This document shows, piece after piece, positions 8,085 through 45,675 of a stretch of 64,000 nt of DNA. Source of the stretch: Patescibacteria group bacterium (GTDB lineage Bacteria > Patescibacteriota > Patescibacteriia > 2-12-FULL-57-11); assembly GCA_004299275.1 (NCBI GenBank), contig SCSU01000066.1, positions 14,277 through 78,276 on the forward strand. Direction: 5' to 3'. Made by a program: the position numbers and the translations under genes. Numbering within the stretch: position 1 is the stretch's first letter; each line of letters starts with the position of its first letter. A model generated the notes under the pieces. That model saw only the letters and a list, made by a program, of their open reading frames with translations, made no database searches and was not told the origin of the DNA.

Positions 8085-8818
8085 AAAGTGGAGGTAGCGG
8101 TTTCCCGATTGACGGTGGCCGGGAAAATCGGGGTGGGCACGGCGTCAATTTGCAATCGGCCAGAGAACTCAAAGGGGATATTTTGCTTCACAAACAGGTT
8201 GGAGAGAGGGGACTCCAAGTTGGCGATGAGCGGCGAGGCGGCGAGAGCATCGCGCAGGCGGTTTAAATCTTGGCGTTTTTCGGCGACGCCGCGCAAGAGC
8301 AGATTTTTTCCGGCGATGTTCAAGTGGAGCGTGTTCAGCGCTATTCCCGACGGCACCAGGGCGAGGATGCCGCCGTAGAGGTCGCCGCTCGGGACAAACT
8401 GGCTTTGAATTTTTTGTAGGTTCCTGATTTCCTCGTTCAGCGCGCGGATTTCGCGGTTGCTGGCGCCGAAGGTCGTGGCGATACTCAGCGCTTGTTCAAC
8501 CGATTGGCGAAAATTGACTTCCAGAATATGGCGTCCGACGACAAGGAGCGAGCCCAAGAGCAAGGTCTCAACAAGCAAGACGAAGAACACATTCCTAAAG
8601 GTCAAAGAGATGAGATGACCTCGGAGCGACTTTTTCTGTTCCTCGGTCAGGAGGTTCAACCGCCACTGATTCGGGAACAGCGTCGTGCCCGGCTGCATTT
8701 TGCTCGCCGAGCGCGTCGGCGGAGCCGAGCGCGCGGCGTCCGTAATTTTCGCGAGGAGATTTTTTTGGTGGAGAGGGCGCAGAGGCATAGAGGTCAGCTG
8801 ATAATTCCGTTTCGTCAA
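8081..8818 (-). CDS. pilN: type IV pilus assembly protein PilN-like
   Basis: Single TM helix plus a periplasmic coiled coil; synteny with pilM. The true start may be the ATG in ...tgacctctATGcctctg. Confidence 0.5.
   Translation of the reverse strand: MTKRNYQLTSMPLRPLHQKNLLAKITDAARSAPPTRSASKMQPGTTLFPNQWRLNLLTEEQKKSLRGHLISLTFRNVFFVLLVETLLLGSLLVVGRHILEVNFRQSVEQALSIATTFGASNREIRALNEEIRNLQKIQSQFVPSGDLYGGILALVPSGIALNTLHLNIAGKNLLLRGVAEKRQDLNRLRDALAASPLIANLESPLSNLFVKQNIPFEFSGRLQIDAVPTPIFPATVNRETATSTL
8790..8815. repeat. solo terminal-inverted-repeat (TIR)-like segment of the GAGGTCATCTGAGAATTCCGTTTCG element family
   Basis: gaggtcagctgataattccgtttcgt, preceded by gcatag exactly as in the copy at 13294. 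Confidence 0.5.
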
Positions 8819-8820
8819 CG

Positions 8821-9936
8821 TTAGACGGAGTTCATGTGGCCGGAGGCCTCCATGGGGAGGAATCGCGCCGCGCGCCGCGCTAAACCGAGAGCCGTGGTGA
8901 ACGAGGCCGTTCGCTCGCGCGGGAATTTGTCGGGGATGGTGAGCCCGCCGAGCGGGTTGCCGCGAGAGACGCGCGTGAGCAGTTTTTGCGCCAGGTAGGA
9001 GTCGATTTTGAGCGTGTTGGCGCTGCCGCCGGCAAGCAGAATGCGTCTGACGCGGTGCCCGCCGGGGTTGCCACGGCGGTAGGCGAGTGTCGCGGCGCGG
9101 ACGTCCTCAATCAAGTCGCGCAGGATTCCAGCAACCACCGGACGGATACGATTGCCGCACCGCGCCGGGTCAAGACCGCAGCTGACCTTGGCTTTTTCCG
9201 CTTCCACCAGCGATACCTTGAGCCATTCCGCGATCTGCGCGGTCGCGACATCGCCCGAGAAGGAGAGAGAGGTCGTAAGCTGAATGGTTCCTTGGTCGTA
9301 GATGATAACGTTGGAGCGCGAGGCGCCGAGGTCGAGGACGGCGATGGCTTCGTCGTTTTGGCTCAGGATTTCGATTAGCAGGCCGCGGACAATGGCGATG
9401 GCCTCGATCTCTACCGCGAGGATGGTGAATCCGGCGGCCTCGAGCGCTGTCGAAAAATTTTCCACGAGCTCCCGCGGGGCGACGGCAACAATTACGCGCT
9501 GCCGCTCCGCGGCGGTCACGCCCGGAAGCGGCGGCAAGAGCTGCCAGTCCAGGGTCGCTTCTTCAAAGGCGAGGGGGATATGCGCCGCCGCCTCGCGAAT
9601 GACTTCGTCGCCGATGCGCTCCGATTCAACTTTTGGAATTTCGATGGTTTTGATGAAAGTTGTGGTTTCGGGCAGCGAGACGACGGCACTGCGCGTTTTT
9701 ATCGCTTTCGGCGTCGCCGTGCGGACCACCGCGCGGAGCAGTTTGGCGGCGGTTTCGGCTTGCTCCACCCTGCCCGGGGAAAATACCCCATCGGGCACCC
9801 GAACTTCGTTCCAAGTGCTCAATTCAAGGCGCGGTTTGCCGAAGACCAGCCGGTTGTACTGCAAATCCACCGCTTTAATTGAGCGGTCGCCGATGTCCAG
9901 TCCAAAGGCGTGATACGAGGATTCGAGCGAGGGCAT
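8821..9936 (-). CDS. pilM: type IV pilus assembly protein PilM (actin-like ATPase fold)
   Basis: FGLDIGDRSIKAV N-terminus and the general layout of PilM. Confidence 0.8.
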   Translation of the reverse strand: MPSLESSYHAFGLDIGDRSIKAVDLQYNRLVFGKPRLELSTWNEVRVPDGVFSPGRVEQAETAAKLLRAVVRTATPKAIKTRSAVVSLPETTTFIKTIEIPKVESERIGDEVIREAAAHIPLAFEEATLDWQLLPPLPGVTAAERQRVIVAVAPRELVENFSTALEAAGFTILAVEIEAIAIVRGLLIEILSQNDEAIAVLDLGASRSNVIIYDQGTIQLTTSLSFSGDVATAQIAEWLKVSLVEAEKAKVSCGLDPARCGNRIRPVVAGILRDLIEDVRAATLAYRRGNPGGHRVRRILLAGGSANTLKIDSYLAQKLLTRVSRGNPLGGLTIPDKFPRERTASFTTALGLARRAARFLPMEASGHMNSV

Positions 9937-17045: not shown

Positions 17046-17120
17046 CGCGGGTATCGTATAGCGGCTATTATGCCACCTTGCCAAGGTGGAGATGGGGGTT
17101 CAACTCCCCCTACCCGCTCC
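17046..17120 (+). tRNA. tRNA-Gly (anticodon GCC)
   Basis: Acceptor gcgggta/tacccgc, anticodon loop ttGCCaa, T-arm gggggttcaactccccc, CCA encoded. Confidence 0.85.
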
Positions 17121-17121
17121 A

Positions 17122-17160
17122 AGAAAACACGCTCCTCTTCACGAGGGGCGTGTTTTCTTT
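17122..17160 (+). terminator. hairpin terminator after tRNA-Gly
   Basis: gaaaacacgctcctcttcacgaggggcgtgttttcttt. Confidence 0.6.
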
Positions 17161-17215
17161 GTAGTCGGTCGTGGGGAGTTGAACCTGCCTGCCGGCTGGC
17201 AGGCGGCAGAAGCGA

Positions 17216-17240
17216 GCCGAGGTGATAATTCAAGACCTGC
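17216..17240. repeat. 22-bp direct repeat (left) flanking the low-GC GH5 island
   Basis: gtgataattcaagacctgcccc; partner at 19405-19430 (gtgataattcaagacctgacccc). Confidence 0.7.
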
Positions 17241-17451
17241 CCCCCGTGTGACGCCCCCCGTGACCCCTTATTGCCCTAGCACCTTCAACATGCGATATTG
17301 TGTAATATGAGACTGTAGAAAAATGATTTTTATTGCCTGATCTTGTCGAAGGCCATAATGAAACGTAGCCAAAAACCCCTTCGACTCCTCCGCCGGCTGG
17401 CGGATTCGCTTGGGGAATAACACTTTTAGGTACTTTTTCTACAGTCTCAAT

Positions 17452-19104
17452 ATGAATATTCAACGCCCCTCTCTCCATTCTCTCCTCTTTGTCACAGGAT
17501 GCGTTTTTGCATTTCTATTTGCAGCCAACTTACCCGTTACCGCCGCAATGAGTGCTTCAGGGCAAGAAAAGTTTTCCCTATGGAAAAAGCCATCTTTTTT
17601 TCGCGGCGCGGCAATACATCCATATAATCCTTACTACGATGGTGTTAAAATTTTTAGCTTCGTGACAAAAGAAGACTTTGCCTCCTTGAGGAATCAGGGA
17701 GCGAACGTTGTCTCTTTGAATTATCCAGGGCCGTATCGCGCAGATCCCCCGTATGCGCTTGATCCTATTAAGCTGAAATGGCTTGATGATGCAGTCGGCT
17801 GGGCAGAGGAGGTGGGGCTGTACGTCGTAATTCATTTTCGAAACGGGCCTGGAAAATCAGAAGCGACCTTTGCCGGTTCACCCGACGGAGCGGATGAGAT
17901 TCTTTGGTATTCTCAAACAGCGAAAGACAAGTGGGTGGACATGTGGCGATTTGTCGCTGACAGATACAAAAATCGAACGCACGTCGTCGCGTACAATTTA
18001 ATGGTTGAACCGCATCCAGATGTTCCGGTCAAACAGCCGCCGCTCCCGGCTTCTGTCTGGTTCGATCTCGCGAAACAAATAACCAAAGGAATCCGTGAGG
18101 TTGATACCCAAACTCCGATTATCGTACCTGCGACCACGTGGTCAAATCCGCTCGCCATGGAAGACGCGGTGCCGACAGGCGATGCGCGCACCATCTATAG
18201 TTTTCACATGTATGAACCTTTTGATTTTACCCATCAGGGTTTTGATTGGGCGGGAAAAGGCAATATTTCCGGCCTCGTGTATCCGGGGAAGATACCGTCT
18301 GATATTTATCCAGAAACAATGTATTGGGATAAAAATCGACTAAGGGACGTGATGAAACACGCTCTGGCGTTTCAAACCAAATATCAAACACCGATTTTTA
18401 TCGGTGAGTTTGGATGCAACCGCCGGGTCCAAAGCTGTATTGTGTTTCTTGATGATCTTCTGTCTATTTTTGAAGAATATGGCTGGAGTTACACTCACTT
18501 TGTGTGGCGTGATGGGGCGGAGTCTGGAGCCGGGGGCGGTGATTTTGATTACGAAACCGAACCAACGGGAACTGCTCCAGTTTTAGAATCGAGTTATATG
18601 CGGATGTTTAAGAAACATTGGAAAGCGGCTGAAACCATTTCTCCGGCTCCGGGCTCTCTTATAAAACAAACCTGCCCAAGTGGAGCTACGGCGGCTCATC
18701 CATGTAAGGCCGTCTATTATTACGGCCAAAATGGCAAGCGTTTCGTGTTTCCAAATTTTATGACGTTTACCACTTGGTATCCAGATTTCACCACCATTAA
18801 AACCATCAGCCCCGAAACCTTATCTTCCATCCCGCTCGGGGGCAACGTCACCTATCGTCCGGCGGTCAAACTGGTCAAAATCACCACCGACCCCAAGGTC
18901 TATGCTGTGGCTGTCGGCGGCGTTCTCCGTTGGGTCAGAACCGAAGCTCTAGCTATTTCCCTCTACGGTACAGATTGGAACCAAAAGATAGATGACGTCC
19001 CCGACGCCTTTTTCGTGAACTACAGCGTGGGGGCAGATATTACGACAGTCTCCGACTTTTCTCCGGCGGCAGAGCTGGCCGCCGCCAGCAGTATTAATTA
19101 TTGA
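17452..19104 (+). CDS. secreted glycoside hydrolase family 5 (cellulase-like) with a C-terminal extra domain
   Basis: Signal peptide; conserved Glu in NLMVEPH, nucleophile motif IFIGEFG. GC content is markedly lower than the flanking DNA. Confidence 0.8.
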   Translation: MNIQRPSLHSLLFVTGCVFAFLFAANLPVTAAMSASGQEKFSLWKKPSFFRGAAIHPYNPYYDGVKIFSFVTKEDFASLRNQGANVVSLNYPGPYRADPPYALDPIKLKWLDDAVGWAEEVGLYVVIHFRNGPGKSEATFAGSPDGADEILWYSQTAKDKWVDMWRFVADRYKNRTHVVAYNLMVEPHPDVPVKQPPLPASVWFDLAKQITKGIREVDTQTPIIVPATTWSNPLAMEDAVPTGDARTIYSFHMYEPFDFTHQGFDWAGKGNISGLVYPGKIPSDIYPETMYWDKNRLRDVMKHALAFQTKYQTPIFIGEFGCNRRVQSCIVFLDDLLSIFEEYGWSYTHFVWRDGAESGAGGGDFDYETEPTGTAPVLESSYMRMFKKHWKAAETISPAPGSLIKQTCPSGATAAHPCKAVYYYGQNGKRFVFPNFMTFTTWYPDFTTIKTISPETLSSIPLGGNVTYRPAVKLVKITTDPKVYAVAVGGVLRWVRTEALAISLYGTDWNQKIDDVPDAFFVNYSVGADITTVSDFSPAAELAAASSINY

Positions 19105-19404
19105 TATAGATAAAAAACTGGCTGCGATGTCTCCAGCTCCTTTATTATTTCTTTTCCTTGCATGATAGTGCCGATTTTTTCCGCATATTTTTGGTTCCCA
19201 ATGATGATTCCGCGGCACGCATGCTTCCAATTTTGTCTATCGTCATCCCTGCCGTTCTCGACGGATTTTTTGATATTCGCTCTGTGCGATAGTTCGATGG
19301 AGGGTGAACTGTGAGCGTATCCAATCGCACGTGAGGAAAAGCGGGTTTTCTCTTAGCATAGCGCAGATCCTAGAACGATTGGATTGTCAGAGGACAGGGG
19401 TGTG

Positions 19405-19430
19405 GAAAGTGATAATTCAAGACCTGACCC
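19405..19430. repeat. 22-bp direct repeat (right) flanking the GH5 island
   Basis: See 17216-17240. Confidence 0.7.
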
Positions 19431-19512
19431 CCAAACAACAAACACAATAAAAAAATCCACCGCGGCTTGAGAGTCAGCTTTGGTGGATGGCTTAACCCCG
19501 GCTTTGGCCGGT

Positions 19513-19722
19513 TTAGAGCTCGGAGTGGGCGGGCGGCGGACGCGCTCCCGTGCGGAGCGTCGGCGGGTCTTGTTCGCGGAGCGTATCCGGCGACTCGTCG
19601 CCGTAGATCTCCCTTTCCGTCACGTCGTTCCAGTCTTCGATGACGAACGATTGCCCAGTGAGGAGCGAGGTGGCGATCCAGCGGCTTCTGCCGGCGGACC
19701 AGTAGACGAGGTAGTGAGTCAT
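19513..19722 (-). CDS. small hypothetical protein; start/stop overlap with the upstream gene
   Basis: ATGA overlap with 19719..20546; a hairpin plus T-run terminator follows at 19458-19495 on the - strand. Confidence 0.4.
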   Translation of the reverse strand: MTHYLVYWSAGRSRWIATSLLTGQSFVIEDWNDVTEREIYGDESPDTLREQDPPTLRTGARPPPAHSEL

Positions 19723-20546
19723 CGCGAGGCCTCCCAGTCGGCGATGATGGCGCCGGTCAGGAGCTCTTCGGTCTGGCCCTTGATGCTCTTCCGGTCCGGC
19801 GCGATTTTGCCGAAGTAGATGATGGTGTCGTCCTTGAGCCGGACCTCATCGCCGACCACGATGCCCTTGATCTGCCAAGGGAGGAGAAAGAGCTCGCGGC
19901 CGCCTTGGACCACGGTCGTCTTGACGCACCCCTCCCCGAAGCTGGCGCCGGAAAAGCACCAGTCGCCCTCGAGGTTAACCACGCCCCGGACCTTGATGGG
20001 CAGGCAAACCTTGGGCAAACAGTCGAAGGACTCGTAGACTGGTTCGCTGCAGGCGTTTTGAGCGCAGACCTCGAAAATCGTTTCCGGCTCCGTCGTGCCG
20101 TCGCCGTCGAAGAGGTCTCGGGTTCCCCGGCCGTAGACCGAGTTGCGCTCCGGGAGCCAGGGGTAGGTGCCGACCGTGGCCCAGAGCGGCGCGCCGGAAG
20201 TCCAGTCGAGAGCGGCCTTGACCTTCCAAAGCAGGCCGTCCTCCTCGTGGTAGGGCGTGACCTCGGCGATCTCGCCGCAGGTGGCTGAGTCGCGGTTCCG
20301 GGGCAGAGCGAGCTCGGGCGGGTAGACCTTGCAGGTCTTGACCATGAGCCCGGTCACGTCTTGCGAGGCCGGCGGCATTCCGCCCTCGTTGACACTCCGG
20401 TTCGGCGGCGCGCCGCTGTCCGGCGAGGGGGATGTTTCGGCTTCGCGCCGCGGCGAGGGGATGAGTTCCTCCCCGTAGAGGCAGGCCGGAGCGGAGACGA
20501 ACGGAACGATGATGGAAAAGAACAGGTGGTTGATTGGTTGCTTCAC
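19719..20546 (-). CDS. secreted Cys-rich hypothetical protein
   Basis: Signal peptide and multiple Cys residues; no recognised domain. Confidence 0.5.
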   Translation of the reverse strand: MKQPINHLFFSIIVPFVSAPACLYGEELIPSPRREAETSPSPDSGAPPNRSVNEGGMPPASQDVTGLMVKTCKVYPPELALPRNRDSATCGEIAEVTPYHEEDGLLWKVKAALDWTSGAPLWATVGTYPWLPERNSVYGRGTRDLFDGDGTTEPETIFEVCAQNACSEPVYESFDCLPKVCLPIKVRGVVNLEGDWCFSGASFGEGCVKTTVVQGGRELFLLPWQIKGIVVGDEVRLKDDTIIYFGKIAPDRKSIKGQTEELLTGAIIADWEASR

Positions 20547-20630
20547 GACACTTCTCCTTTTTCGGTTTCTGTTTCTGTTACTGTTTCTTTTCTACGTTCT
20601 ACATCCTACGTTCTACCTACTACCTACTGT

Positions 20631-23498
20631 TTAATAATCACCTCCTTTCTGTGCAGTCGAACGCTTAAGAATTTTTTCCGCGAGTTCGGCCAGCCGCCGC
20701 CGCCAAGGGAGAGCCGCTCCCCAGCCGGCGGTGAGCAGTACGCCGCCCGCGGCGCCGGTGGCGCCGGCGCTGGCCGGAGAAATCGGCGGCTCGTTTTTTC
20801 CCGGTCGCGGCGGCAAGGGCGCGGGCAAGAGCACTTGGAGGTCACCTCCGTCGCGTACGGCCAGTTCGCGTTCGCCTTTGGTCGTGAGCCGCAGAATTCC
20901 GGTGGCTCGTACTTCGGCACCGACCGCATAGGCGTCGCGGCTTTTAAGTTTTGTCGGGAGCTTTAGGTCCAGCTCGCCCTGCCGCGAAAGAGTGATTTTT
21001 TGCGCGGTTTTATCAATTACGGTTCCTTCAGTAGTGAGGAGCGTGAGGAGCGGCGCGTCTTCGGCTTCCTCGAGCGCGGCGAGAAATTGCGGCTCTGGCG
21101 CCGCGCCGGGTTCGGCGGCAATCGTCTGCGCGCGAACCCGCTCCTGACCGCTGCGCGTGATTGTCGTTCCAGTCACTTTTAGACGATCGCCGCGGTTTAT
21201 TTCCCTTGCGTCTTTAGGGAGCTCAATCAAAATGCCGCCGGTCTCGGTCAGGACTGGAATGGTTTGAGCGCCGAGCGGCCCGCGTTCAGCGAGCGCGATG
21301 CCGCCTAAAGTGATACGCGGAGATTTTTTGGGGCTGGTTGTTTTTTTCTTAGATTTAATTCGGTAGGTTCGGTTCGAAGAAGTTTTAACGCTGGCGATTT
21401 CCATTACCGCCTCTTCTTCTTCCGCCAAATCTTTTTTATAGACGCGCAGTGAACGCTTTAGTGTGGAAGATGCTCCGGCGGCGTCAGCAACAGCCAGAGA
21501 GACAGAAAATTTTCCGGATGAGGCGTAGACATGCGCCGCCGACACTCCCTCGGCCGTCAGGCCGTCGCCAAAGTCCCAGCGGTAGGCGGAGAGCGGACCG
21601 TCGGCGTCCCAGGATTCCCCGGCGTCAAAGATAAAGGGGTCGCCGGGGGAATCCGGCCGCGTGATGTCTATCGCCGGCCGCGGCAGATGAACAGGGGCAG
21701 CGATAATATTTGTCTCCCCCGGCGTTGGCTGGCTGGTCCAGTTGGGCTCGCCGTCGCCGCCGCGGCCGCGGGCAATACCGGATTCAGCCGCCTCGTAACC
21801 GAGCCGGTCAGCGATGGCGCCATCCGGCGCGATTAGAGCGAGCTCGGCGCCGGAGTTGGGGAGAGCGATTTTTATTTCTTCACGATTAAGCGCGACAAAG
21901 CCGCCGACTGGGATTGTAATTTCCGGGAGCGCGCTCGGCCGGCGGGAGTCAAACGCGACTTTCCAGCCGGCGAGCTTTTGGCTTGAGCTGGAAATGTTCT
22001 GAATCTCCACGAACTCGCCTAGGGCATCCGGGCCGGCCGGGTTCGGGAGTATCTCGGAAATTCGGAGCGGGGCGATTCCAGAGAGGAGCGTGGTGATTTC
22101 ATTTGTCCCGCCTGGGGTTGGCGTGGCGGACTCGGCAAAGTCTTCAGCCGCGTTGCCGCTGGAAAATCCGTCAAAAACGCGGGCAATGCTCGTGCCGGGG
22201 CGGCTCCCGGCTGGCGCGTTATCCTCGGGCGTTCCGTCGCCGCTCCCCCAAATTACCTGCTCGCTGGTGTAGCCCTCCGGGTCAATCAGAAAAATAATGC
22301 CGCTTTCTTTGTTGATTGCGCCGGTAAGACTCGGGACGAGCAGATGTGCGTCTCCGGCCAGCGTGCCGGTGAGCGCCACGGGCTCGTCGGTATTGGCGCG
22401 GAGCCGCCAACCGGCGAGCGACACCGCGCGCGGCTCCGGATTAGCCAGCTCCACCCAAGCGCTCAGAGCGTCGTCGGGGTAAATTTCGTTGACTAAAACT
22501 CGCCCCGGAGGATAGCGGCGTTCCGCTGACTCGACGCTCGTGTTTCGTTTTTTATTTGATATCGGCGCAACAACCACGTTTTGACCACCGGGAGTTGGCG
22601 CGGCGGTCAGCCGCCAGGCGCCGTCGGGCAAAGTCTCTCGCGCGATTGATTGCCCGGGTTCTGGTGCGGGCAGAGCAGAGCCGCCGTAGTTGATTGTGTC
22701 CTCGGTCGCCCCGTTGCAGATGAGCGACACCGTGTCCCCGTCGTTGTTTAGTTTGGCGGAGGGGAGATAGACCGTGAGATAAGCCGCCGGCACATTGAGC
22801 TCAGCGACAGACGCTATTTTTCCGTGACTGTCGTGAAGCTCGCAGAAATCAGCGGGGACTGTTGCTGGGCCGGCATTAAAGAGTTCAACCCACTCTTTTC
22901 CATCGGCTGCCGGCGCGGGAAAAATTTCCGATAATTTGAGCGTTAGAGGAGGGGGTGTCGGCTCGGCGGGCAGCTCTTCGATTTTTCCGCAGTCATTCTC
23001 GAGGCCGGCGCTGTCGCCCTCCAGCCGCTCGCACCAATTTTCCGGCAATGGTTCGGCGTGCGAGTCGCGCCGCTCGATGACTTTGTTTTTGGTGGCCGGA
23101 TAGGTAAAAACCTCGGCCAGCGTTCCCGAGGCGTCGCGTAAGCCGATTTCTTCGCCGGATTCGGCAAGCGAGCCCCAAGCGGAGTCAAAAACAGTCAGTG
23201 TGCTTGAGGCCTTATCGGCGAGAAATGTCGCCGCATCCCCGGCAATAATAGCCAGACCTTGCGGCGGGAGGAGATTGCCGCCCTGATAGGATTTAATGCC
23301 GTGGTTGGTCTTCTGTTCCCAAAATTTCCAAAGTGTGAGGTCAATCGGCGCTTCGGAGATGTTTTGAATTTCAAGCCACTCGTGCTCCGCCGCGCCAATA
23401 GTCGAAATTTCGGTAATAACCAGCGGGCTGGCGGCGCGGACAACAGTCGGCGCGAGCAGAAGGAGCAACGAAAAAACCAGAGAGGGGAGAAAACGCAT
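20631..23498 (-). CDS. large surface protein with repeated lamin-tail (LTD) domains and a PKD domain; C-terminal TM anchor
   Basis: LTD motifs (ITEISTIG..EWLEIQN; LSEIFPAP..EWVELFN; LVNEIYPD..AWVELAN; ISEILPNP..EFVEIQN), PKD signature WDFGDG, N-terminal signal peptide, C-terminal hydrophobic helix. Confidence 0.7.
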   Translation of the reverse strand: MRFLPSLVFSLLLLLAPTVVRAASPLVITEISTIGAAEHEWLEIQNISEAPIDLTLWKFWEQKTNHGIKSYQGGNLLPPQGLAIIAGDAATFLADKASSTLTVFDSAWGSLAESGEEIGLRDASGTLAEVFTYPATKNKVIERRDSHAEPLPENWCERLEGDSAGLENDCGKIEELPAEPTPPPLTLKLSEIFPAPAADGKEWVELFNAGPATVPADFCELHDSHGKIASVAELNVPAAYLTVYLPSAKLNNDGDTVSLICNGATEDTINYGGSALPAPEPGQSIARETLPDGAWRLTAAPTPGGQNVVVAPISNKKRNTSVESAERRYPPGRVLVNEIYPDDALSAWVELANPEPRAVSLAGWRLRANTDEPVALTGTLAGDAHLLVPSLTGAINKESGIIFLIDPEGYTSEQVIWGSGDGTPEDNAPAGSRPGTSIARVFDGFSSGNAAEDFAESATPTPGGTNEITTLLSGIAPLRISEILPNPAGPDALGEFVEIQNISSSSQKLAGWKVAFDSRRPSALPEITIPVGGFVALNREEIKIALPNSGAELALIAPDGAIADRLGYEAAESGIARGRGGDGEPNWTSQPTPGETNIIAAPVHLPRPAIDITRPDSPGDPFIFDAGESWDADGPLSAYRWDFGDGLTAEGVSAAHVYASSGKFSVSLAVADAAGASSTLKRSLRVYKKDLAEEEEAVMEIASVKTSSNRTYRIKSKKKTTSPKKSPRITLGGIALAERGPLGAQTIPVLTETGGILIELPKDAREINRGDRLKVTGTTITRSGQERVRAQTIAAEPGAAPEPQFLAALEEAEDAPLLTLLTTEGTVIDKTAQKITLSRQGELDLKLPTKLKSRDAYAVGAEVRATGILRLTTKGERELAVRDGGDLQVLLPAPLPPRPGKNEPPISPASAGATGAAGGVLLTAGWGAALPWRRRLAELAEKILKRSTAQKGGDY

Positions 23499-23705
23499 AA
23501 CTTTTTGGCGCCCCTCTCTGGCGCGTTATCCACAGTTCAGCGTAACACGAACCTTCCCTGCCTTGTGGATTACTCCTTGTCAAGCCCCCGAGTTTAGTCC
23601 CGAATTTCGTGATTTAAGTTCCCGAGCAAAGTCGAGGGACTACATAAAATCCGCATTTTGATCTCGACTAAGCGCTTCCTTATATATATGATGCCTTTGC
23701 CAGCC

Positions 23706-23737
23706 AAGGTCTGACCTTGCAAGGCCAGACCTTGATG
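23706..23737. repeat. overlapping GACCTTGCAAGG palindromes immediately upstream of tRNA-Leu(TAG)
   Basis: caaGGTCTGACCTTGCAAGGCCAGACCttg. Confidence 0.55.
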
Positions 23738-23738
23738 T

Positions 23739-23820
23739 GCCGGTGTGGCGAAATTGGCAGACGCACCAGCCTTAGGAGCTGGGGCCGCAAGGCATGGGGG
23801 TTCGAGTCCCTCCACCGGCA
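23739..23820 (+). tRNA. tRNA-Leu (anticodon TAG), long variable arm
   Basis: Acceptor gccggtg/caccggc, anticodon loop cTTAGGa, T-arm gggggttcgagtccc. Confidence 0.85.
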
Positions 23821-27922: not shown

Positions 27923-29656
27923 CCTAACCGTTAGTTCGGTGCACGCCGCTTGGGAGCCCCCGAGCGGTTTTTCGTTTCTAAGAGCTTCCGCGTTTGGCGC
28001 ATTGTGTTGACGAGACGTTGTCTTTGGCCACTGACGCTAGTGGGTGTCCAAAGTTCAGCGGAACGTGGCGGGACTTTGACAATTTAATGACGAATAAAAA
28101 GGGTAATGAAAAATAGCTCCATAAGCGCGAAAAGGACGTTTTCGTGCTTCAGTGGAGTGAGAGCATACACTAAGGGCAAACGGTGGATGCCTCGACACAA
28201 GAAGCCGATGAAGGACGTAGCAGCCTGCGATAAGCCCCGGGGAAGTGGCAAGCAACTTTTGATCCGGGGATTTCCGAATGGGGAAACCCATCGTGCTGGA
28301 AGAGCACGGTATCGTGCGCTGAATCCATAGGCGTACGAAGGGCACCTGGCGAAGTGAAACATCTCAGTAGCCAGAGGAAGAGAGACAAAAAATGCTGACC
28401 CAACAGACAACCGACAACTTACAACGAACAACCGAAAGGTTGGGAGTTGTTCGTTGATCGTTGTCCGTTGCGTCAGCTGGATTCCCCTAGTAGTGGCGAG
28501 CGAACGGGGACCAGCCGAAACTCCAGGCGTGATTCACCGAACTGACCCCGACTTTACGTCGGGGCGCAGACGGCTGATGAAGGTGTAGGCCGCTGCGCCT
28601 GGAGGGTAACAGGATCGTGACGTCGGACGCCTACTCGTCCGGGTAGAGGAAACCGCAAGGACATGTCTTCCCAAGCAGAATCCGCTGGAAAGCGGAACCA
28701 GAGCGGGTGATAGTCCCGTACGCGAATGGGGACATAACTCTACTGTCGCGAACCCTCAGTACCGCGGGTCTCGTGAAAGCCTGCGGGAAAGCGCCGCGAC
28801 TATGCGGCAAGGCTAAATACTTCTTGTGATCGATAGTGAACCAGTACCGTGAGGGAAAGGTGAAAAGCAGCCCGGAAGGGCGATGAAACAGTATCTGAAA
28901 CCGTTTGCTTACAAGGAGTCAGAGCCGTGCGCAGCACGGCGACTATCAACTACCAACTATCAACAAAACAACGGTCAATAATTCTGTTGCCCGTTGTGTG
29001 TTGTAAGTTGTGTGTTGGTTGTTGCCGCGCTGTGCGCGGTGATGGCGTTCCTATTGAAGAATGAGCCAACGAGTTTGCCGTGCGTCGCTTAGGTTAAGTC
29101 CCTGAGGGGACGAAGCCGGAGCGAAAGCGAGTCTGAATAGGGCGTATGGACTTTAGAGGCGGAGTTGGAGCCGGCGCGCAAGCGTCAAACCTCCAACTTC
29201 TCACCTCTAATTTCCAAAGGTGGCGCACGCAAGACCCGAAACCCGGTGACCTAGCCATGACCAGGGTGAACTCCGCCGAAAGGCGGAGGGAGGCCCGAAC
29301 CCGTAAGCCGTGCAACACTTTGGGATGAGTCGTGGTTAGCGGAGAAATTCCAATCGAACTGGGTGATAGCTGGTTCTCCCCGAAATAGCTTGAGGGCTAG
29401 CGTCGGTTACACCTCGCGAGGGGTAGAGCACTGAAAGGAAAGCGGTGGAGCAATCCTACGCGTTCCTACCAAACTCCGAATACTCGCGGGGCATCCCGGC
29501 AGTCAGAGCATGGGGGCTAAGCTCCATCGCTCAAAAGGGAAACAGCCCAGATCGCAGTCTAAGGCCCCTAAATCTTCCCGACCTAAAGTCGGGACTCCGA
29601 CACCGCAAGGTCGTCGGAGCGGTTAAGTGTCAAAGGTTGTGGAGTAACTTAAACAA

Positions 29657-29687
<31 letters not shown>

Positions 29688-30780
29688 TAAAGAAAGCGTA
29701 ACAGCTCACTGGTCAAGTCGCTCTGCGCCGAAAATATACCGGGGCTAAAACCGAGTGCCGAAGACGCGACTCCGACGTAAGTCGGAGGGTAGGGGAGCAT
29801 TCTGTCCGCGCTGAAGCCGCGCCGTAAGACGCGGTGGAGCGAACAGAAGGGAGAATGTTGGCATAAGTAGCAAAAAGACGGGTGAGAACCCCGTCCGCCG
29901 TAAACCCAAGGTTTCCTGGGCAACGCAAATCGTCCCAGGGTTAGTCGGTCCTAAGGCGAGGCCAAGAGGCGTAGCCGATGGATGAGCAGGTTAATATTCC
30001 TGCACTACGGCCGTGTCAGGCGCGAGAGGACGCGTCGCAATATCTTCCGAGTTCGAAGGCTACACTTCCGGTGTCGCAAGCCGGCCGCGAGGCAAATCCC
30101 GCGGCGCAAAGCAAGCGATGCCGGCTAGTCTGCGAGTAATCGCGGGCAAGGGAAGAAAATGTGGCGCCTAGAAAAGTCTCGCGATAACGGCATGGCCGCA
30201 CCCGTACCGGAAACCGACACAGGTGGGTGGGCATAAGTGTGCCCAGGCGTACGAGAGAAACATCGTTCAGGAACTCGGCAATACAGCGGCCGTAACTTCG
30301 GGATAAGGCCTACCCCGACGTAAAGTCGGGGTCGCAGCGAAAGACGCTTAGCGACTGTTTACCAAAAACACAGGTCCCTGCGAAGTCGAAAGACAATGTA
30401 TAGGGGCTGATGCCTGGCCAGTGTCAGAACGTTACGGGGAGAGGTCATGGCCGACGCAAGTCGGCCGGCAGCCTTGAACCTAAGCGCTGATGAACGCCGG
30501 CGATAACTATAATCGTCCTAAGGTTCCCTGAATCACTGGCAAGTGGTTCCGGGTAGGACTGGGACGATTATCGAATGGTGAACAAGCAAGCTACCTTGCT
30601 CTGCAGCAATGCAGAGAAAAAGTCCGTTAATGGCTAAATACCTACGTTTCCGAAGAACTAGGTAGGGAAGTCCGATTTTTCGGACCCCGAGAGACCATAC
30701 GCCATGCTCCCGACATACCGTCGGGATGAAGACATGGTCCTTCGTTTAAGGAATCGGAGAGCGAAATTCCTTGTCGGGTG

Positions 30781-30811
<31 letters not shown>

Positions 30812-31050
30812 GAGCGACTGTCTTAACGATGTACTCGGCGAAATTGCAAGATGAGTGAAGATGCTCATTACCCGTGGTTAGACGAAAAGACCCCGTGAAG
30901 CTTTACTACAACTTGCTATTGGCTGCATGCTTCGCCTGTTCAGCGTAGGTGGGAGGTCCGACGAAAGTCGGACCAACAATGAGACACCACCCTTGCGCTG
31001 CGTGCAGTCTCATCTCCGGCCGTGATCCGGCTGGGGAGACAGTAGCTGGT

Positions 31051-31096
<46 letters not shown>

Positions 31097-31166
31097 TTTA
31101 CCAAGGTCGGCTTAGCTCCGATGGAAACGGAGCTGGACGTGCAAGCGCACAAGCCGGCTTTACTGC

Positions 31167-31198
<32 letters not shown>

Positions 31199-31268
31199 AA
31201 GCTAGTGATCCGACCGTTCGAAGTAGGACGGCGGAAGCTCATCGGATAAAAGCTACTCCGGGGATAAC

Positions 31269-32119
31269 CCCAAAAGGGTTGTTGTCCCGATCCGACGGTA
31301 ACGTCGGATCATGAAAACGGCTAATAACGGTGGAGTCCCGCCAGGCGGGATAATACCGTGGGAAGTTCTTCGTCTCATCATCATAATTATGATTGAACGC
31401 GAACGAAATATCGTGATTGGTTGCGTACTTGGCGACGGTTTTCTCCAATCGACCGGAAGACATAACGCGCGGCTGCGGCTCGAGCATTCCATCAAACAGA
31501 AGGAATATCTCGAGTGGAAGTGGCGCGAACTGGCGCGCTATATGCAAGATCGCCCCAAGCGCCTGGTTCGTTGGAATCCGGTTTGGAAAAAACGTTACGA
31601 GTATCTGCGATGCCAATCGCACAGTTCGCCGCAATTCGGCAAGCTTCGGGAATTATTCTATCGCGATCAGACGCGGCAGGTTCCCGATGAGATAGCCAAG
31701 TTGCTGCGCTCGCCGCTCTCGTTGGCGGTTTGGTTTATGGATGACGGATATTACTATACGCGAGATCGCGTAGCGTATATCTATCTTCCTAAACTATCCG
31801 CCGATGACATTCGGCGTTTGTGTCAAGCATTAAATGATGATTTTGATCTTCATCCGAAGGTCGAACGCAAGAAAACTGGGGCACTAAACCTCAAATTTTC
31901 TGCGGCAGAAACGAAAAAATTAATTAAGATAATCGCCCCGCATATAATCAAAAGTATGCGGTACAAAATCGGCGAAGAACCCCGTATCGACTGAGTCCTA
32001 TGGACGAGGTGGCGCAGAGGAGGGAATATCCGCGCCACAATATGCCGTACTCCTTGTCTGGCGAGACAAGGATGAAGATATAGTCAGTGCCCTTAGTAAT
32101 AAGGGAGTAAAACATGAAC
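31269..32119 (+). mobile_element. group I intron 1 in the 23S peptidyl-transferase region (after GGGGATAAC), carrying a LAGLIDADG ORF
   Basis: The exon sequence GATAAC|AGGCTGATC is split by ~850 nt. Confidence 0.75.
31311..31994 (+). CDS. LAGLIDADG homing endonuclease (intron-encoded)
   Basis: Two LAGLIDADG-type motifs, [11 protein letters not shown] and [10 protein letters not shown]. Confidence 0.85.
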
Positions 32120-32200
32120 AGGCTGATCGGGTCCAAGAGTCCACATCGACGACCCGGTTTGGCACCTCGATGTCGGCCCGTCGCATCCTGGGGCTGGAGA

Positions 32201-32937
32201 AAACATACCTTCTCTCCTGCGAGGAAACTCGCGGGTAATAAACAAGCTCAAACGGTAGAGACCACACCATACGACCTTCCTGTTTCGGAGGTCCCAGGTC
32301 TGCTATAGTGCAGATGTATGACGGTTAATGCCGTAGGAAAGGAATGCGTTGAAGTCGATCGAGCATATCTTGCCGGTCTCATTGACGGTGATGGTGCCAT
32401 CATGGCTATCATCGAACCGCACAGTGAGAAGAAATTTCGTTTCCGTGTTCGGATCGAAGTAAAAGTGACTCAAAAGCATGAGGAAGACGTCTCGTTTTTG
32501 CCGAAACTTTTGGGTTGCGGATTGATTCGAACAAATAGGACAACGTATGAGTGGATTACACGAGACCAGCAACATGTCTTGCGTATCCTCTCAATGGTTC
32601 GTCCTTATACGAGAATGAAAAATCGGCAGATGGAAATAGCAATGAAGATCATCCGTACTCCGATACGGACTCAGGGTGATCTTTTGCGCGTTGCTCGATT
32701 GGCAGATGCATTGGCGCGTTTCAACGTGCGATCCAACAATCGCCGTAGGAACTATGCGACAATGATCGAAACGCATTTCTCCTCTAACGACTGATTGGTA
32801 AACGTTGGGTTTACCATGAGATATGCCCCGCCATGGCGGGGGTATCATACGGCTTGCACCTGTGTTGTGTCCGGTGACGGATATCAATATGGTGATGGAA
32901 TAGTCTGATACTCGCGGAAACGCGAGATAACAAAAAT
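32201..32937 (+). mobile_element. group I intron 2 in the 23S (after CCTGGGGCTGgag), carrying a LAGLIDADG ORF
   Basis: The exon sequence GGGGCTG..AGGTCCCAAGGGT is split by ~740 nt. Confidence 0.75.
32318..32794 (+). CDS. LAGLIDADG homing endonuclease (intron-encoded, single-motif type)
   Basis: YLAGLIDGDG motif. Confidence 0.85.
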   Translation: MTVNAVGKECVEVDRAYLAGLIDGDGAIMAIIEPHSEKKFRFRVRIEVKVTQKHEEDVSFLPKLLGCGLIRTNRTTYEWITRDQQHVLRILSMVRPYTRMKNRQMEIAMKIIRTPIRTQGDLLRVARLADALARFNVRSNNRRRNYATMIETHFSSND

Positions 32938-32965
32938 GAGGTCCCAAGGGTTTGGCTGTTCGCCA

Positions 32966-33288
<323 letters not shown>

Positions 33289-33630
33289 TCGGTCTCCTAT
33301 CTACCACGGGCGCAGAAACTTGCGGGGGCGCTCTCTCAGTACGAGAGGACCGGAGAGCACGAACCTCTTGTGTACCAGCTGTCCTGCCAAGGGCATCGCT
33401 GGGTAGCGAAGTTCGGAACGGATAAACGCTGAAAGCATCTAAGCGTGAAGCCGTCCCCAAGATTAGGTTTCATTACGAGACCCCAGAGAGATGATCTGGT
33501 TGATCGGCGGCAGGTGTAAGGCCCGCAAGGGTTTGAGCCGAGCCGTACGAATCGGTCCAGTGTGCTCCTCTAACCACTGAAGCACGAAGCCGTTCTTCAT
33601 TACCTATTTATTCGTCAATTTCAAAAGACA

Positions 33631-33662
33631 GAGATCCGATCTCCCATAGGAGATCGGATCTC
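33631..33662. repeat. GGAGATCC palindromic hairpin (GAGATCCGATCTCC-cata-GGAGATCGGATCTC) in the 23S-5S spacer
   Basis: Perfect 14-bp stem. Confidence 0.75.
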
Positions 33663-33687
33663 GATGTCGCTTTGGCCGCAGCATTCT

Positions 33688-33808
33688 CGGTGCCTCGAGC
33701 GAGGTGGTCACACCCGTTCCCATCCCGAACACGGCAGTTAAGCACCTCAGCGCCGATGGTACTTGGCGTAAACTAACGCCCGGGAGAGTAGGCCGGTGCC
33801 GAGTATAT
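33688..33808 (+). rRNA. rrf: 5S rRNA
   Basis: ggtggtcacacccgttcccatcccgaacacggcagttaagc...cccgggagagtaggccggtgccgag. Ends are approximate. Confidence 0.8.
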
Positions 33809-43984: not shown

Positions 43985-45560
<1,576 letters not shown>

Positions 45561-45675
45561 AGAGAAAACCCCTCTACCCTCGCGGGTTTCGGGGCTCAAT
45601 CAATGAGTCATTACCCAACTTGCCTGCCATAGGCAGGCGTTGTTTTTGTTGTTGGAGTTTCACTCGAAAATTATA

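What the first reader, a model, noticed from the sequence alone, without database searches (positions are those of the whole stretch)
17216..19430. Low-GC glycoside hydrolase family 5 cellulase island bracketed by 22-bp direct repeats
The secreted GH5 gene (17452..19104) and its flanks are visibly AT-richer than the ~60% GC surroundings. The segment is bounded by gtgataattcaagacctgNcccc at 17216-17240 and 19405-19430 and sits right after tRNA-Gly; a partial inverted tRNA-Gly T-arm copy is also present at ~17170-17185. This is consistent with a horizontally acquired cassette. An endoglucanase is also a notable capability for a putative episymbiont.
Basis: partly seen in the sequence, partly recalled or inferred. 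Interest (0 to 1): 0.55.

Follow-up and report, generated by a model that had tools for sequence, protein, structure and literature searches.

The report
Foreign GH5 gene flanked by transposon ends
A low-GC sugar-cleaving enzyme gene in a Patescibacteria (CPR) genome was probably acquired from a related, lower-GC lineage, and its two flanking "direct repeats" are end sequences of a little-studied mobile element (a TIRtron) whose dead transposase gene lies beside it.

Summary
A 24-nt direct repeat (23/24 identical) sits at 17222-17245 and 19409-19432. tRNA-Gly(GCC) is at 17047-17121, and a 13-nt inverted copy of its T-arm is at 17173-17185. The GH5 gene (17452-19104) has GC 0.48 and GC3 0.48, against a window GC3 of 0.68.

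The repeats are not attachment sites or target duplications. The same sequence (GTGATAATTCAAGACCTGNCC) occurs at 105 places in 86 stretches from many other phyla. There it is the terminal inverted repeat of about 0.93-kb "TIRtrons", which carry a Y1/HUH transposase (TIRYT) with a C-terminal HTH, and of gene-less doublets. None of those hits is named Patescibacteria.

In the window, copy 2 is the left end of a decayed minus-strand TIRYT pseudogene (19362-19122; 42 bits, E 5e-12 after correcting one frameshift). The closest GH5 homologues (72-78% identity) are Patescibacteria GH5-CTD-GH10 fusions on contigs of GC 0.46-0.51, and the window copy stops before the GH10 module.

The best reading is horizontal acquisition from a lower-GC Patescibacterium together with a TIRtron remnant. 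How it integrated is inferred, not shown. An empty-site test is impossible because no close relative is in the public data.

The parts
17047..17121 (+). tRNA-Gly(GCC). It is native and marks the left side of the intergenic gap that holds the island.
   Evidence: ARAGORN; Rfam tRNA 60.5 bits
17121..17159 (+). Terminator-like hairpin of the tRNA: 17-nt arms, 94% complementary, followed by a T-run.
   Evidence: I4; one search lists its core, 17134-17148
17173..17185 (.). 13-nt inverted copy of the tRNA-Gly T-arm (GGGGAGTTGAACC). Together with 17097-17109 it encloses the terminator in a nested hairpin. Its origin is unexplained; it could alternatively be a degenerate left arm of a TIR doublet.
   Evidence: I9; DNA fold z = -8.9; the doublet alternative is by eye
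17222..17245 (+). TIR copy 1 (GTGATAATTCAAGACCTGCCCCCC). It is a solo TIRtron terminal repeat whose CCCC tip faces the GH5 gene.
   Evidence: identical to TIRs in L009-L094; L039 shares the C variant at position 19
17239..17264 (+). Short tandem duplication that starts in the TIR tip (GCCCCCCGTGTGAC / GCCCCCCGTGAC). The same kind of footprint is seen next to TIRs elsewhere.
   Evidence: 15 of 105 TIR ends have such a duplication, against 10 of 2100 in shuffled controls
17308..17449 (+). GH5 leader enclosed by a perfect 16-nt inverted repeat (17308-17323 / 17434-17449) that ends 2 nt before the ATG.
   Evidence: I5; only these 2 copies in the window; RNA fold z = -4.8
17452..19104 (+). GH5-family glycoside hydrolase gene, 550 aa. 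It has an N-terminal hydrophobic signal-like segment (by eye), a GH5 domain at residues 71-353, and a Patescibacteria-type C-terminal domain at about residues 406-550. It lacks the GH10 module of its closest relatives.
   Evidence: Pfam PF00150 4e-32; PDB endoglucanases down to E 4e-26; P0001 identical, NCBI 'Patescibacteria group bacterium'; 72% identity to P0003 up to its residue 539, where P0003 continues into GH10 at 548-850
19122..19362 (-). Decayed TIRYT (Y1/HUH transposase) pseudogene. Only profile positions 145-223 of 286 survive, with a frameshift in an A-run. The catalytic Y1 domain and the C-terminal HTH are missing.
   Evidence: Profile built from 7 intact TIRYTs. The two best hits in the window are adjacent frames at E 4.3e-4 and 7e-4 (next best 0.062). 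The frameshift-corrected translation scores 42.3 bits, E 5e-12. The top null score in 1.05 Mb of CPR DNA is 18 bits.
19409..19432 (+). TIR copy 2 (GTGATAATTCAAGACCTGACCCCC). It is the left-end repeat (IRL, reading GGGGGTCAGG... on the minus strand) of the dead TIRYT gene. Its tip abuts native sequence.
   Evidence: same IRL-then-gene arrangement as L034, L072, L094; confirmed in L095 and L096
19433..19488 (-). Native terminator-like hairpin (ATCCACC...GGTGGAT) plus a T-run, belonging to the convergent minus-strand operon (the 69-aa, 275-aa and LTD/PKD protein genes). It marks the right edge of the native DNA.
   Evidence: Read from the sequence. It was not picked up by the simple scan because the loop is long. 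GC rises to 0.72 from 19500.

Best explanation
A roughly 2.2-kb foreign segment fills the gap between tRNA-Gly with its terminator and the terminator of a convergent native operon. The segment has two components.

1. An intact, probably secreted GH5-family hydrolase gene of a Patescibacteria-specific type (GH5 domain plus a Patescibacteria-type C-terminal module). It lacks the GH10 module carried by its nearest relatives.
2. The wreck of a TIRtron, a small mobile element made of a Y1/HUH tyrosine transposase (TIRYT) flanked by 23-bp terminal inverted repeats that start with GGGG.

The '22-bp direct repeats' are two copies of that terminal repeat. Copy 2 is the left end of the dead, minus-strand TIRYT gene. 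Copy 1 is a solo end pointing the same way.

What is shown:
- the identity of the repeats;
- the TIRYT pseudogene;
- the compositional break;
- the Patescibacteria affinity of the GH5 gene.

What is inferred:
- GH5 and the TIRtron remnant arrived together from a lower-GC Patescibacterium.
- They were fixed by recombination at a TIR copy, either homologous or TIRYT-mediated between a TIR on the incoming DNA and a TIR at the target. That would leave TIRs in direct orientation on both sides.
- The transposase then decayed, so the island can no longer move itself.
For: - **Repeat identity.** The 21-mer matches 105 places in 86 stretches of GTDB genomes (Acidobacteriota, Bacillota, Nitrospirota, Desulfobacterota, Atribacterota, Binatia, Pseudomonadota and others). 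The matches are multi-copy and often form close inverted doublets.
- **Element architecture.** In L034, L049, L053, L072, L074, L086 and L094 the layout is IRL (GGGGTCAGGTCTTGAA...), a 283-312-aa ORF, then IRR overlapping or closely following the stop codon. The ORF matches Pfam Y1_Tnp (3.6e-12) plus HTH_23. It scores 79.3 bits on NCBIfam REP_Tyr_transpos, whose cutoff is 80.
- **Literature match.** This corresponds to the published TIRYT/TIRtron description, with TIR motif GGGGWSAS and a C-terminal HTH, subclass 2.1 (PMC3733652; PMC6006769).
- **Pseudogene.** The window carries a TIRYT pseudogene beside copy 2 in the canonical orientation (42.3 bits, E 5e-12).
- **Composition.** The island has GC 0.48 against 0.57 for the window, and GH5 GC3 has z = -2.6.
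- **Homologues.** The closest homologues, P0002 (78%) and P0003 (72%; cluster members named Patescibacteria), sit on contigs of GC 0.46-0.51.
- **Assembly.** The right junction is identical in two independent assemblies.
- **Footprint.** Copy 1 carries the tip-duplication footprint typical of this family's ends.
Against: - No relative with an empty or differently filled site exists in the public data, so acquisition is inferred from composition only.
- The GH5 gene is mosaic. Its C-terminal domain has intermediate GC3 (0.575). That domain is closer to a GH10 protein of the same MAG (P0053, 75%) than to P0002 (65%) or P0003 (53%). So part of the gene may be resident or converted.
- In TIR-rich genomes, same-orientation TIRs bracket ordinary genes simply because they are dense in intergenic DNA (L073, L063). 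The bracketing here could therefore be coincidental.
- The two copies differ at one base.
- The TIRYT fragment found nothing in two global protein searches, so its support is local only.
- The left junction is not independently verified.
Confidence: 0.6

Rival explanations
1. Native gene, unrelated repeats. GH5 is vertically inherited with gene-specific low GC, and two REP-like TIR copies (plus a TIRtron that later decayed) inserted independently into its two intergenic flanks.
For: - In other genomes TIRs are scattered in intergenic regions and bracket ordinary genes (L073: LexA-like and MATE genes; L063: a three-gene block).
- The C-terminal domain is most similar to paralogues of the same MAG and has intermediate GC3.
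- Another GH gene of this MAG (L177, GH10) also has lowish GC (0.516; GC3 0.61).
Against: - Only two TIR copies exist in 64 kb, and both lie at the edges of the compositional break.
- The GH5 catalytic part has GC3 0.449, far below the other long genes.
- The TIRYT pseudogene lies inside the same low-GC block.
- The nearest GH5 homologues come from contigs of GC 0.41-0.51.
Confidence: 0.2
2. Cargo-carrying TIR-ended unit. The stretch 17246-19432 (leader, GH5, dead TIRYT, TIR) is itself a non-autonomous mobile unit. A TIRYT supplied in trans would cut after a TIR tip on one strand and paste the unit next to another TIR tip, as IS200/IS605 peel-and-paste inserts 3' of a short target. This automatically gives TIR-unit-TIR in direct orientation.
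For: - Direct orientation is what this mechanism predicts.
- Tandem TIR units with 41-46-nt periods (L028, L057, L073, L030) and tip duplications (15 of 105 against 0.5% in controls) show that new material is repeatedly added right after a TIR tip.
- The Y1/HUH relatives IS608 and ISDra2 work through single-strand circles (PMC6006769 abstract).
Against: - No second copy of the unit was found anywhere. The GH5 relatives L001-L008 lack the TIR.
- No intact TIRYT lies in the window.
- The biochemistry of TIRYT is unknown in the literature searched.
- The evidence is purely structural.
Confidence: 0.12
3. Classical tRNA-targeted genomic island. An integrase inserted a cassette at tRNA-Gly, and the direct repeats are attL and attR.
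For: The island lies next to a tRNA gene, is flanked by direct repeats, has low GC, and has a tRNA-like 13-mer nearby.
Against: - No integrase or recombinase ORF lies in or next to the segment.
- The repeat starts 101 nt after the tRNA and shares no sequence with it.
- The tRNA fragment is inverted, not direct.
- The repeat is a transposon end present in many phyla.
Confidence: 0.03
4. Assembly or binning chimera. The low-GC piece belongs to another organism and was joined at a repeat.
For: The Logan contig L095 breaks at 17420, inside the GH5 leader. The left junction is unverified.
Against: - Two independent contigs from two runs cross the right junction and continue into native genes at 100% identity.
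- The GH5 C-terminal module is Patescibacteria-specific and closest to proteins of the same MAG.
Confidence: 0.03

Closest known systems
TIRtron / TIRYT (TIR-associated tyrosine transposase; Di Nocera et al. 2013, PMC3733652; TnpA_REP subclass 2.1 of Quentin et al. 2018, PMC6006769)
   Same: - The repeat's outer end fits the published TIR motif GGGGWSAS (copy 2: GGGGTCAG).
- In related loci the repeat flanks, in inverted orientation, a 283-312-aa Y1/HUH protein with a C-terminal HTH (HTH_23, HTH_28 and Bac_DnaA_C-like).
- The repeats also occur as singles, dimers and clusters, as published.
- The window holds a pseudogene of this protein next to copy 2.
   Different: - In the window the transposase is dead: no HUH/Tyr domain and no HTH.
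- Only one end is attached to it. The second repeat is in direct, not inverted, orientation.
- A non-transposase gene lies between the two repeats.
- The host is a Patescibacterium, and none of the 86 exact-match stretches in GTDB species representatives is named Patescibacteria.
- The 20 specified bases of the search pattern are identical across many phyla, which the two papers do not describe.
RAYT / REP / REPIN systems
   Same: They share a homologous Y1 transposase fold. NCBIfam REP_Tyr_transpos scores 79.3 bits, just under the 80-bit cutoff. The repeats are short, intergenic, multi-copy and often form inverted doublets able to fold into hairpins.
   Different: The repeat unit is not itself a palindrome and carries no GTAG or CGTC tag. 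The protein is longer and has an extra HTH domain. The unit looks like an insertion sequence with true terminal inverted repeats.
IS200/IS605 (IS608, ISDra2) peel-and-paste elements
   Same: They use a Y1/HUH catalytic domain (Pfam Y1_Tnp). This gives a possible single-strand mechanism in which insertion happens next to a short specific sequence.
   Different: IS200/IS605 elements have subterminal hairpins and no terminal inverted repeats. Their transposase is about 130-150 aa and has no HTH. None of this mechanism has been shown for TIRYT.
tRNA-linked genomic islands (integrase-mediated)
   Same: A low-GC segment next to a tRNA gene, bounded by direct repeats.
   Different: There is no integrase, and the repeats are not derived from the tRNA 3' end. 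They are transposon ends.
GH5 endoglucanases (PDB 8b3y, 8ag9, 1cec)
   Same: Same fold family (E down to 4e-26). The nucleophile motif GEFG and the acid/base Glu are present.
   Different: The Asn of the canonical N-E-P motif is Val (L-M-V-E-P) in 46 of the 48 closest homologues aligned (Gly or Lys in the other two). The gene carries a Patescibacteria-specific C-terminal module. Relatives are fused to GH10 or GH114-like domains. The substrate is therefore uncertain.

Membership tests
TIRtron / TIRYT | Terminal repeat whose outer end fits GGGGWSAS | tested here: met
   On the minus strand copy 2 reads GGGGGTCAGG, which contains GGGGTCAG. Copy 1 reads GGGGGGCAGG, so the W position is G (a one-base variant that also occurs in L039)..
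TIRtron / TIRYT | The repeats flank, in inverted orientation, a Y1/HUH tyrosine transposase gene | tested here: inconclusive
   Met in related loci L034, L049, L053, L074, L086 and L094. In the window only a fragment of the gene survives (profile positions 145-223; 42 bits). It has one TIR in the canonical place, and the other TIR is in direct orientation.
TIRtron / TIRYT | HUH motif and catalytic Tyr in the encoded protein | tested here: not met
   The window remnant lacks profile positions 1-144, which hold the Y1_Tnp domain. The intact relatives do have that domain: HYHLMIET can be seen in L053.
TIRtron / TIRYT (subclass 2.1) | C-terminal helix-turn-helix extension | tested here: not met
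   The window remnant stops at profile position 223, where the GH5 3' end begins. The relatives have HTH_23 at 1.2e-5, HTH_28, and Bac_DnaA_C at 0.15.
RAYT / REP | Repeat is a short self-complementary palindrome with a GTAG (or CGTC) tag | tested here: not met
   The 24-mer has no internal palindrome and no GTAG or CGTC head. Folds of the two copies with their flanks are not better than shuffles (z = -1.6 and +0.1).
RAYT / REP | Protein reaches the NCBIfam REP_Tyr_transpos (NF047646) cutoff | tested here: not met
   The intact relative from L053 scores 79.3 bits against a cutoff of 80.
tRNA-targeted integrative island | Tyrosine or serine integrase gene at one end | tested here: not met
   The ORF list and Pfam scans of 14.5-22.5 kb show none.
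tRNA-targeted integrative island | Direct repeats that duplicate the 3' part of the tRNA gene | tested here: not met
   The repeat starts 101 nt after the tRNA end and is unrelated to it. The only tRNA-like piece is inverted and lies outside the repeat.
Composite transposon | Two complete IS copies whose outer ends face outward around the cargo | tested here: not met
   There is no intact transposase. The tip of copy 1 faces the cargo rather than away from it.
Glycoside hydrolase family 5 | GH5 (beta/alpha)8 domain with two catalytic Glu (N-E-P acid/base motif and nucleophile) | tested here: inconclusive
   Pfam PF00150 at 4e-32 and PDB endoglucanases at 4e-26. The nucleophile motif GEFG and the acid/base Glu are present, but N-E-P is V-E-P throughout most of the clade. 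Activity and substrate were not tested.
Horizontally acquired island (operational) | Absent from the same site in close relatives | not testable with these tools
   No close relative is available. The p275 protein is an orphan, and PilB relatives are at most 57% identical with no synteny.
Horizontally acquired island (operational) | Composition and codon usage deviate from the host genome | tested here: met
   GC 0.48 against 0.57. GC3 is 0.483 against 0.680 +/- 0.076 (z = -2.6). Codon chi-square is among the highest of the real genes.

The most novel reading that the evidence does not exclude
The stretch from just after TIR copy 1 to the tip of TIR copy 2 (leader, GH5, dead TIRYT, TIR) may be a cargo-carrying, non-autonomous TIRtron derivative. 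A Y1 TIRYT supplied in trans would move it by single-strand peel-and-paste next to a pre-existing TIR tip. This would be the first indication that TIRtrons shuttle metabolic genes, here a secreted glycoside hydrolase, between genomes. It would also link CPR bacteria to a transposon pool shared with many other phyla, in which the searched core of the end sequence is identical.
Probability: 0.12. Interest if true: 0.6.

Novelty: new member of a known kind. Interest (0 to 1): 0.3.

Why it matters
**For annotating this genome.** The 'cassette repeats' should be labelled as TIRtron terminal repeats, with a TIRYT pseudogene at 19122-19362. The GH5 gene is a probable intra-Patescibacteria transfer that lost, or never had, the GH10 module of its relatives.

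**More broadly.** TIRYT/TIRtrons appear in only two papers in the searched library, and their mechanism is unknown. This locus adds four things:
- an occurrence in a reduced CPR genome;
- the observation that the 20 specified bases of the end sequence recur unchanged across many phyla;
- footprints at the TIR tip, namely short duplications and tandem units;
- one case in which two same-orientation ends bracket a foreign gene.

These are leads for working out how this Y1 transposase family acts. They are not proof of cargo mobilisation.

Tried and rejected
- **GH10 remnant after the GH5 stop.** A tblastn of P0002 ran past the stop codon, but the extension has no real similarity. Rejected.
- **TIRYT C-terminus on the + strand upstream of copy 2.** By eye, GFSLSIAQILERL looked HTH-like. 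Pfam gave only HTH_11 at E 0.071, and the profile found the real remnant on the minus strand. Rejected.
- **Minus-strand tRNA or tRNA pseudogene across 17160-17245.** ARAGORN and Rfam at E <= 1 found none. Rejected.
- **Known RNA family in the GH5 leader or the flanks.** None found.
- **Motif in GH5 relatives' contigs L001-L008.** Absent, even with 5 mismatches.
- **Motif in viral contigs.** 0 hits.
- **Motif strings in the literature.** No relevant paper.
- **Empty-site search.** The p275 protein is an orphan. Eighty PilB loci share no synteny and have no GH5.
- **Independent left-junction contig.** Look-ups via the GH5 protein, PilB and the 161-aa protein all returned 'not on record'.
- **Global homology searches with the TIRYT remnant.** The word-index search and phmmer against 1.84 billion proteins both found nothing. 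The remnant is too decayed.
- **Flanks as part of a larger conserved element.** A blastn-short of 17122-17221, 17246-17451 and 19105-19408 against the loci gave only chance 13-15-mers.
- **REPIN-type hairpin around copy 1.** The fold is not significant (z = -1.6).
Full report
**1. The observation**

- tRNA-Gly(GCC) occupies 17047-17121. A terminator-like hairpin follows at 17121-17159 (I4).
- A 24-nt sequence, GTGATAATTCAAGACCTG[C/A]CCCCC, occurs at 17222-17245 and again at 19409-19432 on the same strand, 23/24 identical. These are the only two matches in the 64-kb window even at 3 mismatches, and none appeared in 100 shuffles.
- The 13-nt inverted copy of the tRNA T-arm is exact (17097-17109 and 17173-17185, I9).
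- Between the repeats lies one long ORF, 17452-19104 (+), 550 aa, matching Pfam Cellulase/GH5 at 4e-32.
- The interval between the repeats has GC 0.480, against 0.569 for the rest of the window.
- GH5 GC3 is 0.483, against 0.680 +/- 0.076 for 43 other ORFs (z = -2.6). The ORFs with similarly low GC3 lie in or beside the rRNA-intron region.
- Two Logan contigs from two sequencing runs reproduce the right junction and the whole GH5 gene at 100% identity. L095 covers window 23774..17420 and L096 covers 22072..19249.
- The left junction could not be cross-checked.

**2. What the 'direct repeats' are**

I searched GTGATAATTCAAGACCTGNCC in one genome per GTDB species. About one chance hit was expected, by my own estimate from the collection size. 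The search returned 86 stretches holding 105 copies.

- The hosts include Vicinamibacterales and other Acidobacteriota, Syntrophomonadaceae and other Bacillota, Nitrospirota, many Desulfobacterota, Atribacterota, Binatia, Bacteroidota and Pseudomonadota. None is named Patescibacteria.
- Many copies form close inverted doublets (GGGGTCAGGTCTTGAATTATCAC, a 4-60-nt spacer, then GTGATAATTCAAGACCTGACCCC).
- In seven loci the sequence lies next to a 283-312-aa ORF. In six of them recognisable inverted copies sit on both sides. The left copy sits 10-25 nt before the start codon. The right copy usually overlaps the stop codon, so that the TGA lies inside the repeat.
- That ORF carries the IS200-like Y1/HUH domain (Pfam Y1_Tnp, 3.6e-12) and a C-terminal helix-turn-helix (HTH_23, HTH_28, weak Bac_DnaA_C). 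It scores 79.3 bits on NCBIfam 'REP-associated tyrosine transposase', just under the 80-bit cutoff.

This matches what Di Nocera et al. called TIRtrons encoding TIRYTs, with TIRs sharing the outer motif GGGGWSAS (PMC3733652). Quentin et al. place them in TnpA_REP subclass 2.1, which has an HTH extension (PMC6006769). The window repeat fits: on the minus strand copy 2 reads GGGGTCAG. The repeats are therefore ends of a mobile element. They are not attachment sites or target duplications created at this locus.

**3. A dead transposase inside the island**

I built a profile from the seven intact TIRYTs and searched all six-frame fragments of the window.

- The two best hits fall in the 300-nt 'non-coding' stretch between the GH5 stop and copy 2, on the minus strand, in two adjacent frames. 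They are 19386-19246 (profile 145-179, E 4.3e-4) and 19352-19101 (profile 173-223, E 7e-4). The next best hit in the window is 0.062.
- The two frames meet in an A-run. Correcting that single frameshift gives a 91-aa translation that scores 42.3 bits (E 5e-12) over profile positions 147-223.
- The best score in 1.05 Mb of unrelated CPR DNA is 18 bits.
- The remnant lies in the canonical position and orientation relative to copy 2 (TIR, then gene), as in L034, L072 and L094.
- It lacks the catalytic domain (positions 1-144) and the HTH (224-286). Its 3' side is cut off where the GH5 gene ends.
- Global searches with the remnant found nothing, as expected for so decayed a fragment.

**4. The GH5 gene and its likely source**

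- The protein is identical to an NCBI entry from a 'Patescibacteria group bacterium'.
- Its closest homologues are P0002 (78%) and P0003 (72%; cluster members named Patescibacteria). Both are 845-853-aa fusions of GH5, a C-terminal domain (CTD) and GH10. The window protein aligns up to P0003 residue 539 and stops where the GH10 domain would begin. No GH10 remnant follows.
- These homologues sit on contigs of GC 0.46-0.51, and more distant ones on contigs of GC 0.41. That matches the island's 0.48 rather than the host's 0.57. In L001-L005 the gene lies among toxin-antitoxin and other accessory genes.
- The roughly 145-aa CTD recurs at 55-75% identity on GH10, GH44, GH114-like, phosphodiester glycosidase and Ig-like proteins across Patescibacteria. 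Three of these proteins belong to the same MAG.
- The gene is a mosaic. The catalytic part has GC3 0.449. The CTD has GC3 0.575 and is closer to P0053, a GH10 protein of the same MAG (75%), than to P0002 (65%) or P0003 (53%).
- The clade carries L-M-V-E-P in place of the canonical GH5 N-E-P. Val occupies that position in 46 of the 48 homologues aligned. The nucleophile motif GEFG is intact. The best PDB matches are endoglucanases (E 4e-26), but the substrate is open.

**5. How the locus most likely arose**

Shown:
- The segment is compositionally foreign.
- It carries a Patescibacteria-type GH5 gene and a TIRtron wreck.
- Its right edge is the tip of TIR copy 2. That tip directly abuts the T-run and hairpin that end the native convergent operon.

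Inferred:
- GH5 and the TIRtron remnant came in together from a lower-GC Patescibacterium.
- They were fixed by recombination involving TIR copies.

The geometry constrains the mechanism. Both copies read GTGAT...CCCC on the + strand, so the tip of copy 1 faces GH5 and the pair is not a composite transposon. Direct orientation is what a Campbell-type event between a TIR on incoming DNA and a TIR at the target would produce. A peel-and-paste insertion next to a TIR tip would produce it too.

Copy 1 is followed by a short tandem duplication that starts in its tip (GCCCCCCGTGTGAC / GCCCCCCGTGAC). The same footprint occurs at 15 of 105 TIR ends, against 10 of 2100 shuffled controls. Most of the 15 lie next to intact TIRYT genes. 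Tandem TIR units with periods of 41-46 nt occur in L028, L057, L073 and L030. Together these suggest activity at the tip. They do not show how GH5 came to lie there.

**6. Rivals**

- **Classical tRNA-island model.** Contradicted. There is no integrase, the repeat is unrelated to the tRNA, and the tRNA-like 13-mer is inverted.
- **Assembly chimera.** Unlikely for the right junction and given the Patescibacteria-type CTD. The left junction remains unverified, and L095 breaks at 17420, inside the leader's inverted repeat.
- **Coincidental bracketing.** This is the serious rival. TIRs behave like REP sequences and in TIR-rich genomes flank ordinary genes (L073, L063), so two independent insertions around a resident gene cannot be excluded. 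Against it: the window has only two copies, both sit at the compositional edges, and the pseudogene lies inside the low-GC block.
- **Empty-site test.** It would decide the matter, but it cannot be run. The neighbouring 275-aa protein has no homologue except itself. The best PilB relatives in metagenomes are 50-57% identical, with no shared neighbours.

**7. Comparison with known systems, and novelty**

The repeats are members of the TIRtron TIR family: motif and context were tested and met in relatives. The window element fails the tests for an intact TIRtron, because it has no catalytic domain, no HTH and only one properly placed end. I therefore file it as a TIRtron remnant plus a solo TIR.

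It is not a RAYT/REP system (no palindromic GTAG or CGTC unit, and the protein scores just under the family cutoff). It is not an IS200/IS605 element (those lack TIRs and an HTH). It is not an integrase island.

Glycoside hydrolases in CPR genomes and horizontal transfer among them are not surprising (my own knowledge of the field, not tested here). Three things are mildly new:
- a TIRtron in a Patescibacterium;
- the recurrence of the same end-sequence core across many phyla;
- a foreign gene sitting between two same-orientation ends.

TIRYTs are named in only two papers in the searched library.

**Verdict.** I class this as a new member of a known kind, with modest interest (0.3). The most novel reading not excluded is TIRYT-mediated cargo mobilisation, at a probability of about 0.12.

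Noticed in passing
window 28160-33804 and 43989-45566: The rRNA layout is typical of CPR. The 23S match (28160-31397) is about 300 nt longer than the model. It is followed by low-GC ORFs (31311-31994, 32318-32794), a group I intron (32887-33227) and 5S (33686-33804). The 16S is unlinked, on the opposite strand. The ORFs may be intron homing endonucleases.
   Followed up: partly
window 17308-17449: A perfect 16-nt inverted repeat (17308-17323 / 17434-17449) encloses the 110-nt GH5 leader and ends 2 nt before the ATG. The RNA fold has z = -4.8. It occurs only here in the window, and Logan contig L095 breaks inside it. It could be a translational control hairpin or a small MITE.
   Followed up: partly
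window 17097-17185: A 13/13 inverted copy of the tRNA-Gly T-arm forms, with the tRNA 3' half, a long hairpin that nests the tRNA terminator (DNA fold z = -8.9). Alternatively it is a degenerate left TIR arm (GGGG..TTGAA) of a doublet whose right arm is copy 1. Unexplained.
   Followed up: partly
window 17452-19104 (residues about 185-190); proteins P0001-P0052: In this GH5 clade the canonical N-E-P acid/base motif is almost always L-M-V-E-P. Val occupies the Asn position in 46 of 48 aligned homologues, and GEFG is intact. Many members are fused to GH10 or PF03537 (GH114-like) domains, so the 'cellulase' label may be wrong.
   Followed up: partly
window 18667-19101 compared with P0053, P0065, P0067 (same MAG): The C-terminal Patescibacteria module of GH5 is 75% identical to the N-terminal module of a GH10 protein from the same MAG, but only 53-65% identical to the module of its closest GH5 relatives. 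Its GC3 (0.575) lies between the catalytic part (0.449) and the genome (0.68). This hints at domain exchange or gene conversion after arrival.
   Followed up: partly
loci L009-L094 (e.g. L074, L015, L051, L093; L028, L057, L073, L030): TIR ends often carry a short tandem duplication that starts in the tip and includes 5-10 nt of flank (15 of 105 against 0.5% in controls). Some TIRs are tandemly repeated with 41-46-nt periods. This is a possible footprint of TIRYT action at the tip.
   Followed up: partly
TIR inner end (window 17222-17229, 19409-19416; all loci): On the complementary strand the inner end of the TIR reads TTATCAC. This resembles a DnaA box (TTATNCACA) lacking one base, and the TIRYT C-terminus weakly resembles DnaA domain IV (Bac_DnaA_C, E 0.15). 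The published comparison considered only the outer GGGGWSAS motif.
   Followed up: no
window 19719-20546 (-): The 275-aa gene right of the island has the highest GC3 in the window (0.866). It has no Pfam domain and no homologue other than itself among 5.8 billion proteins.
   Followed up: partly
loci L001-L005 (around 8738-9201 and 15543-16179 in L001): In the closest relatives the GH5-CTD-GH10 gene sits in an accessory region. HicAB and HepT/MNT toxin-antitoxin pairs, a Bro-N protein and an AAA_14/DUF4143 ATPase surround it. This is consistent with a mobile or variable neighbourhood in the putative donor lineage.
   Followed up: no
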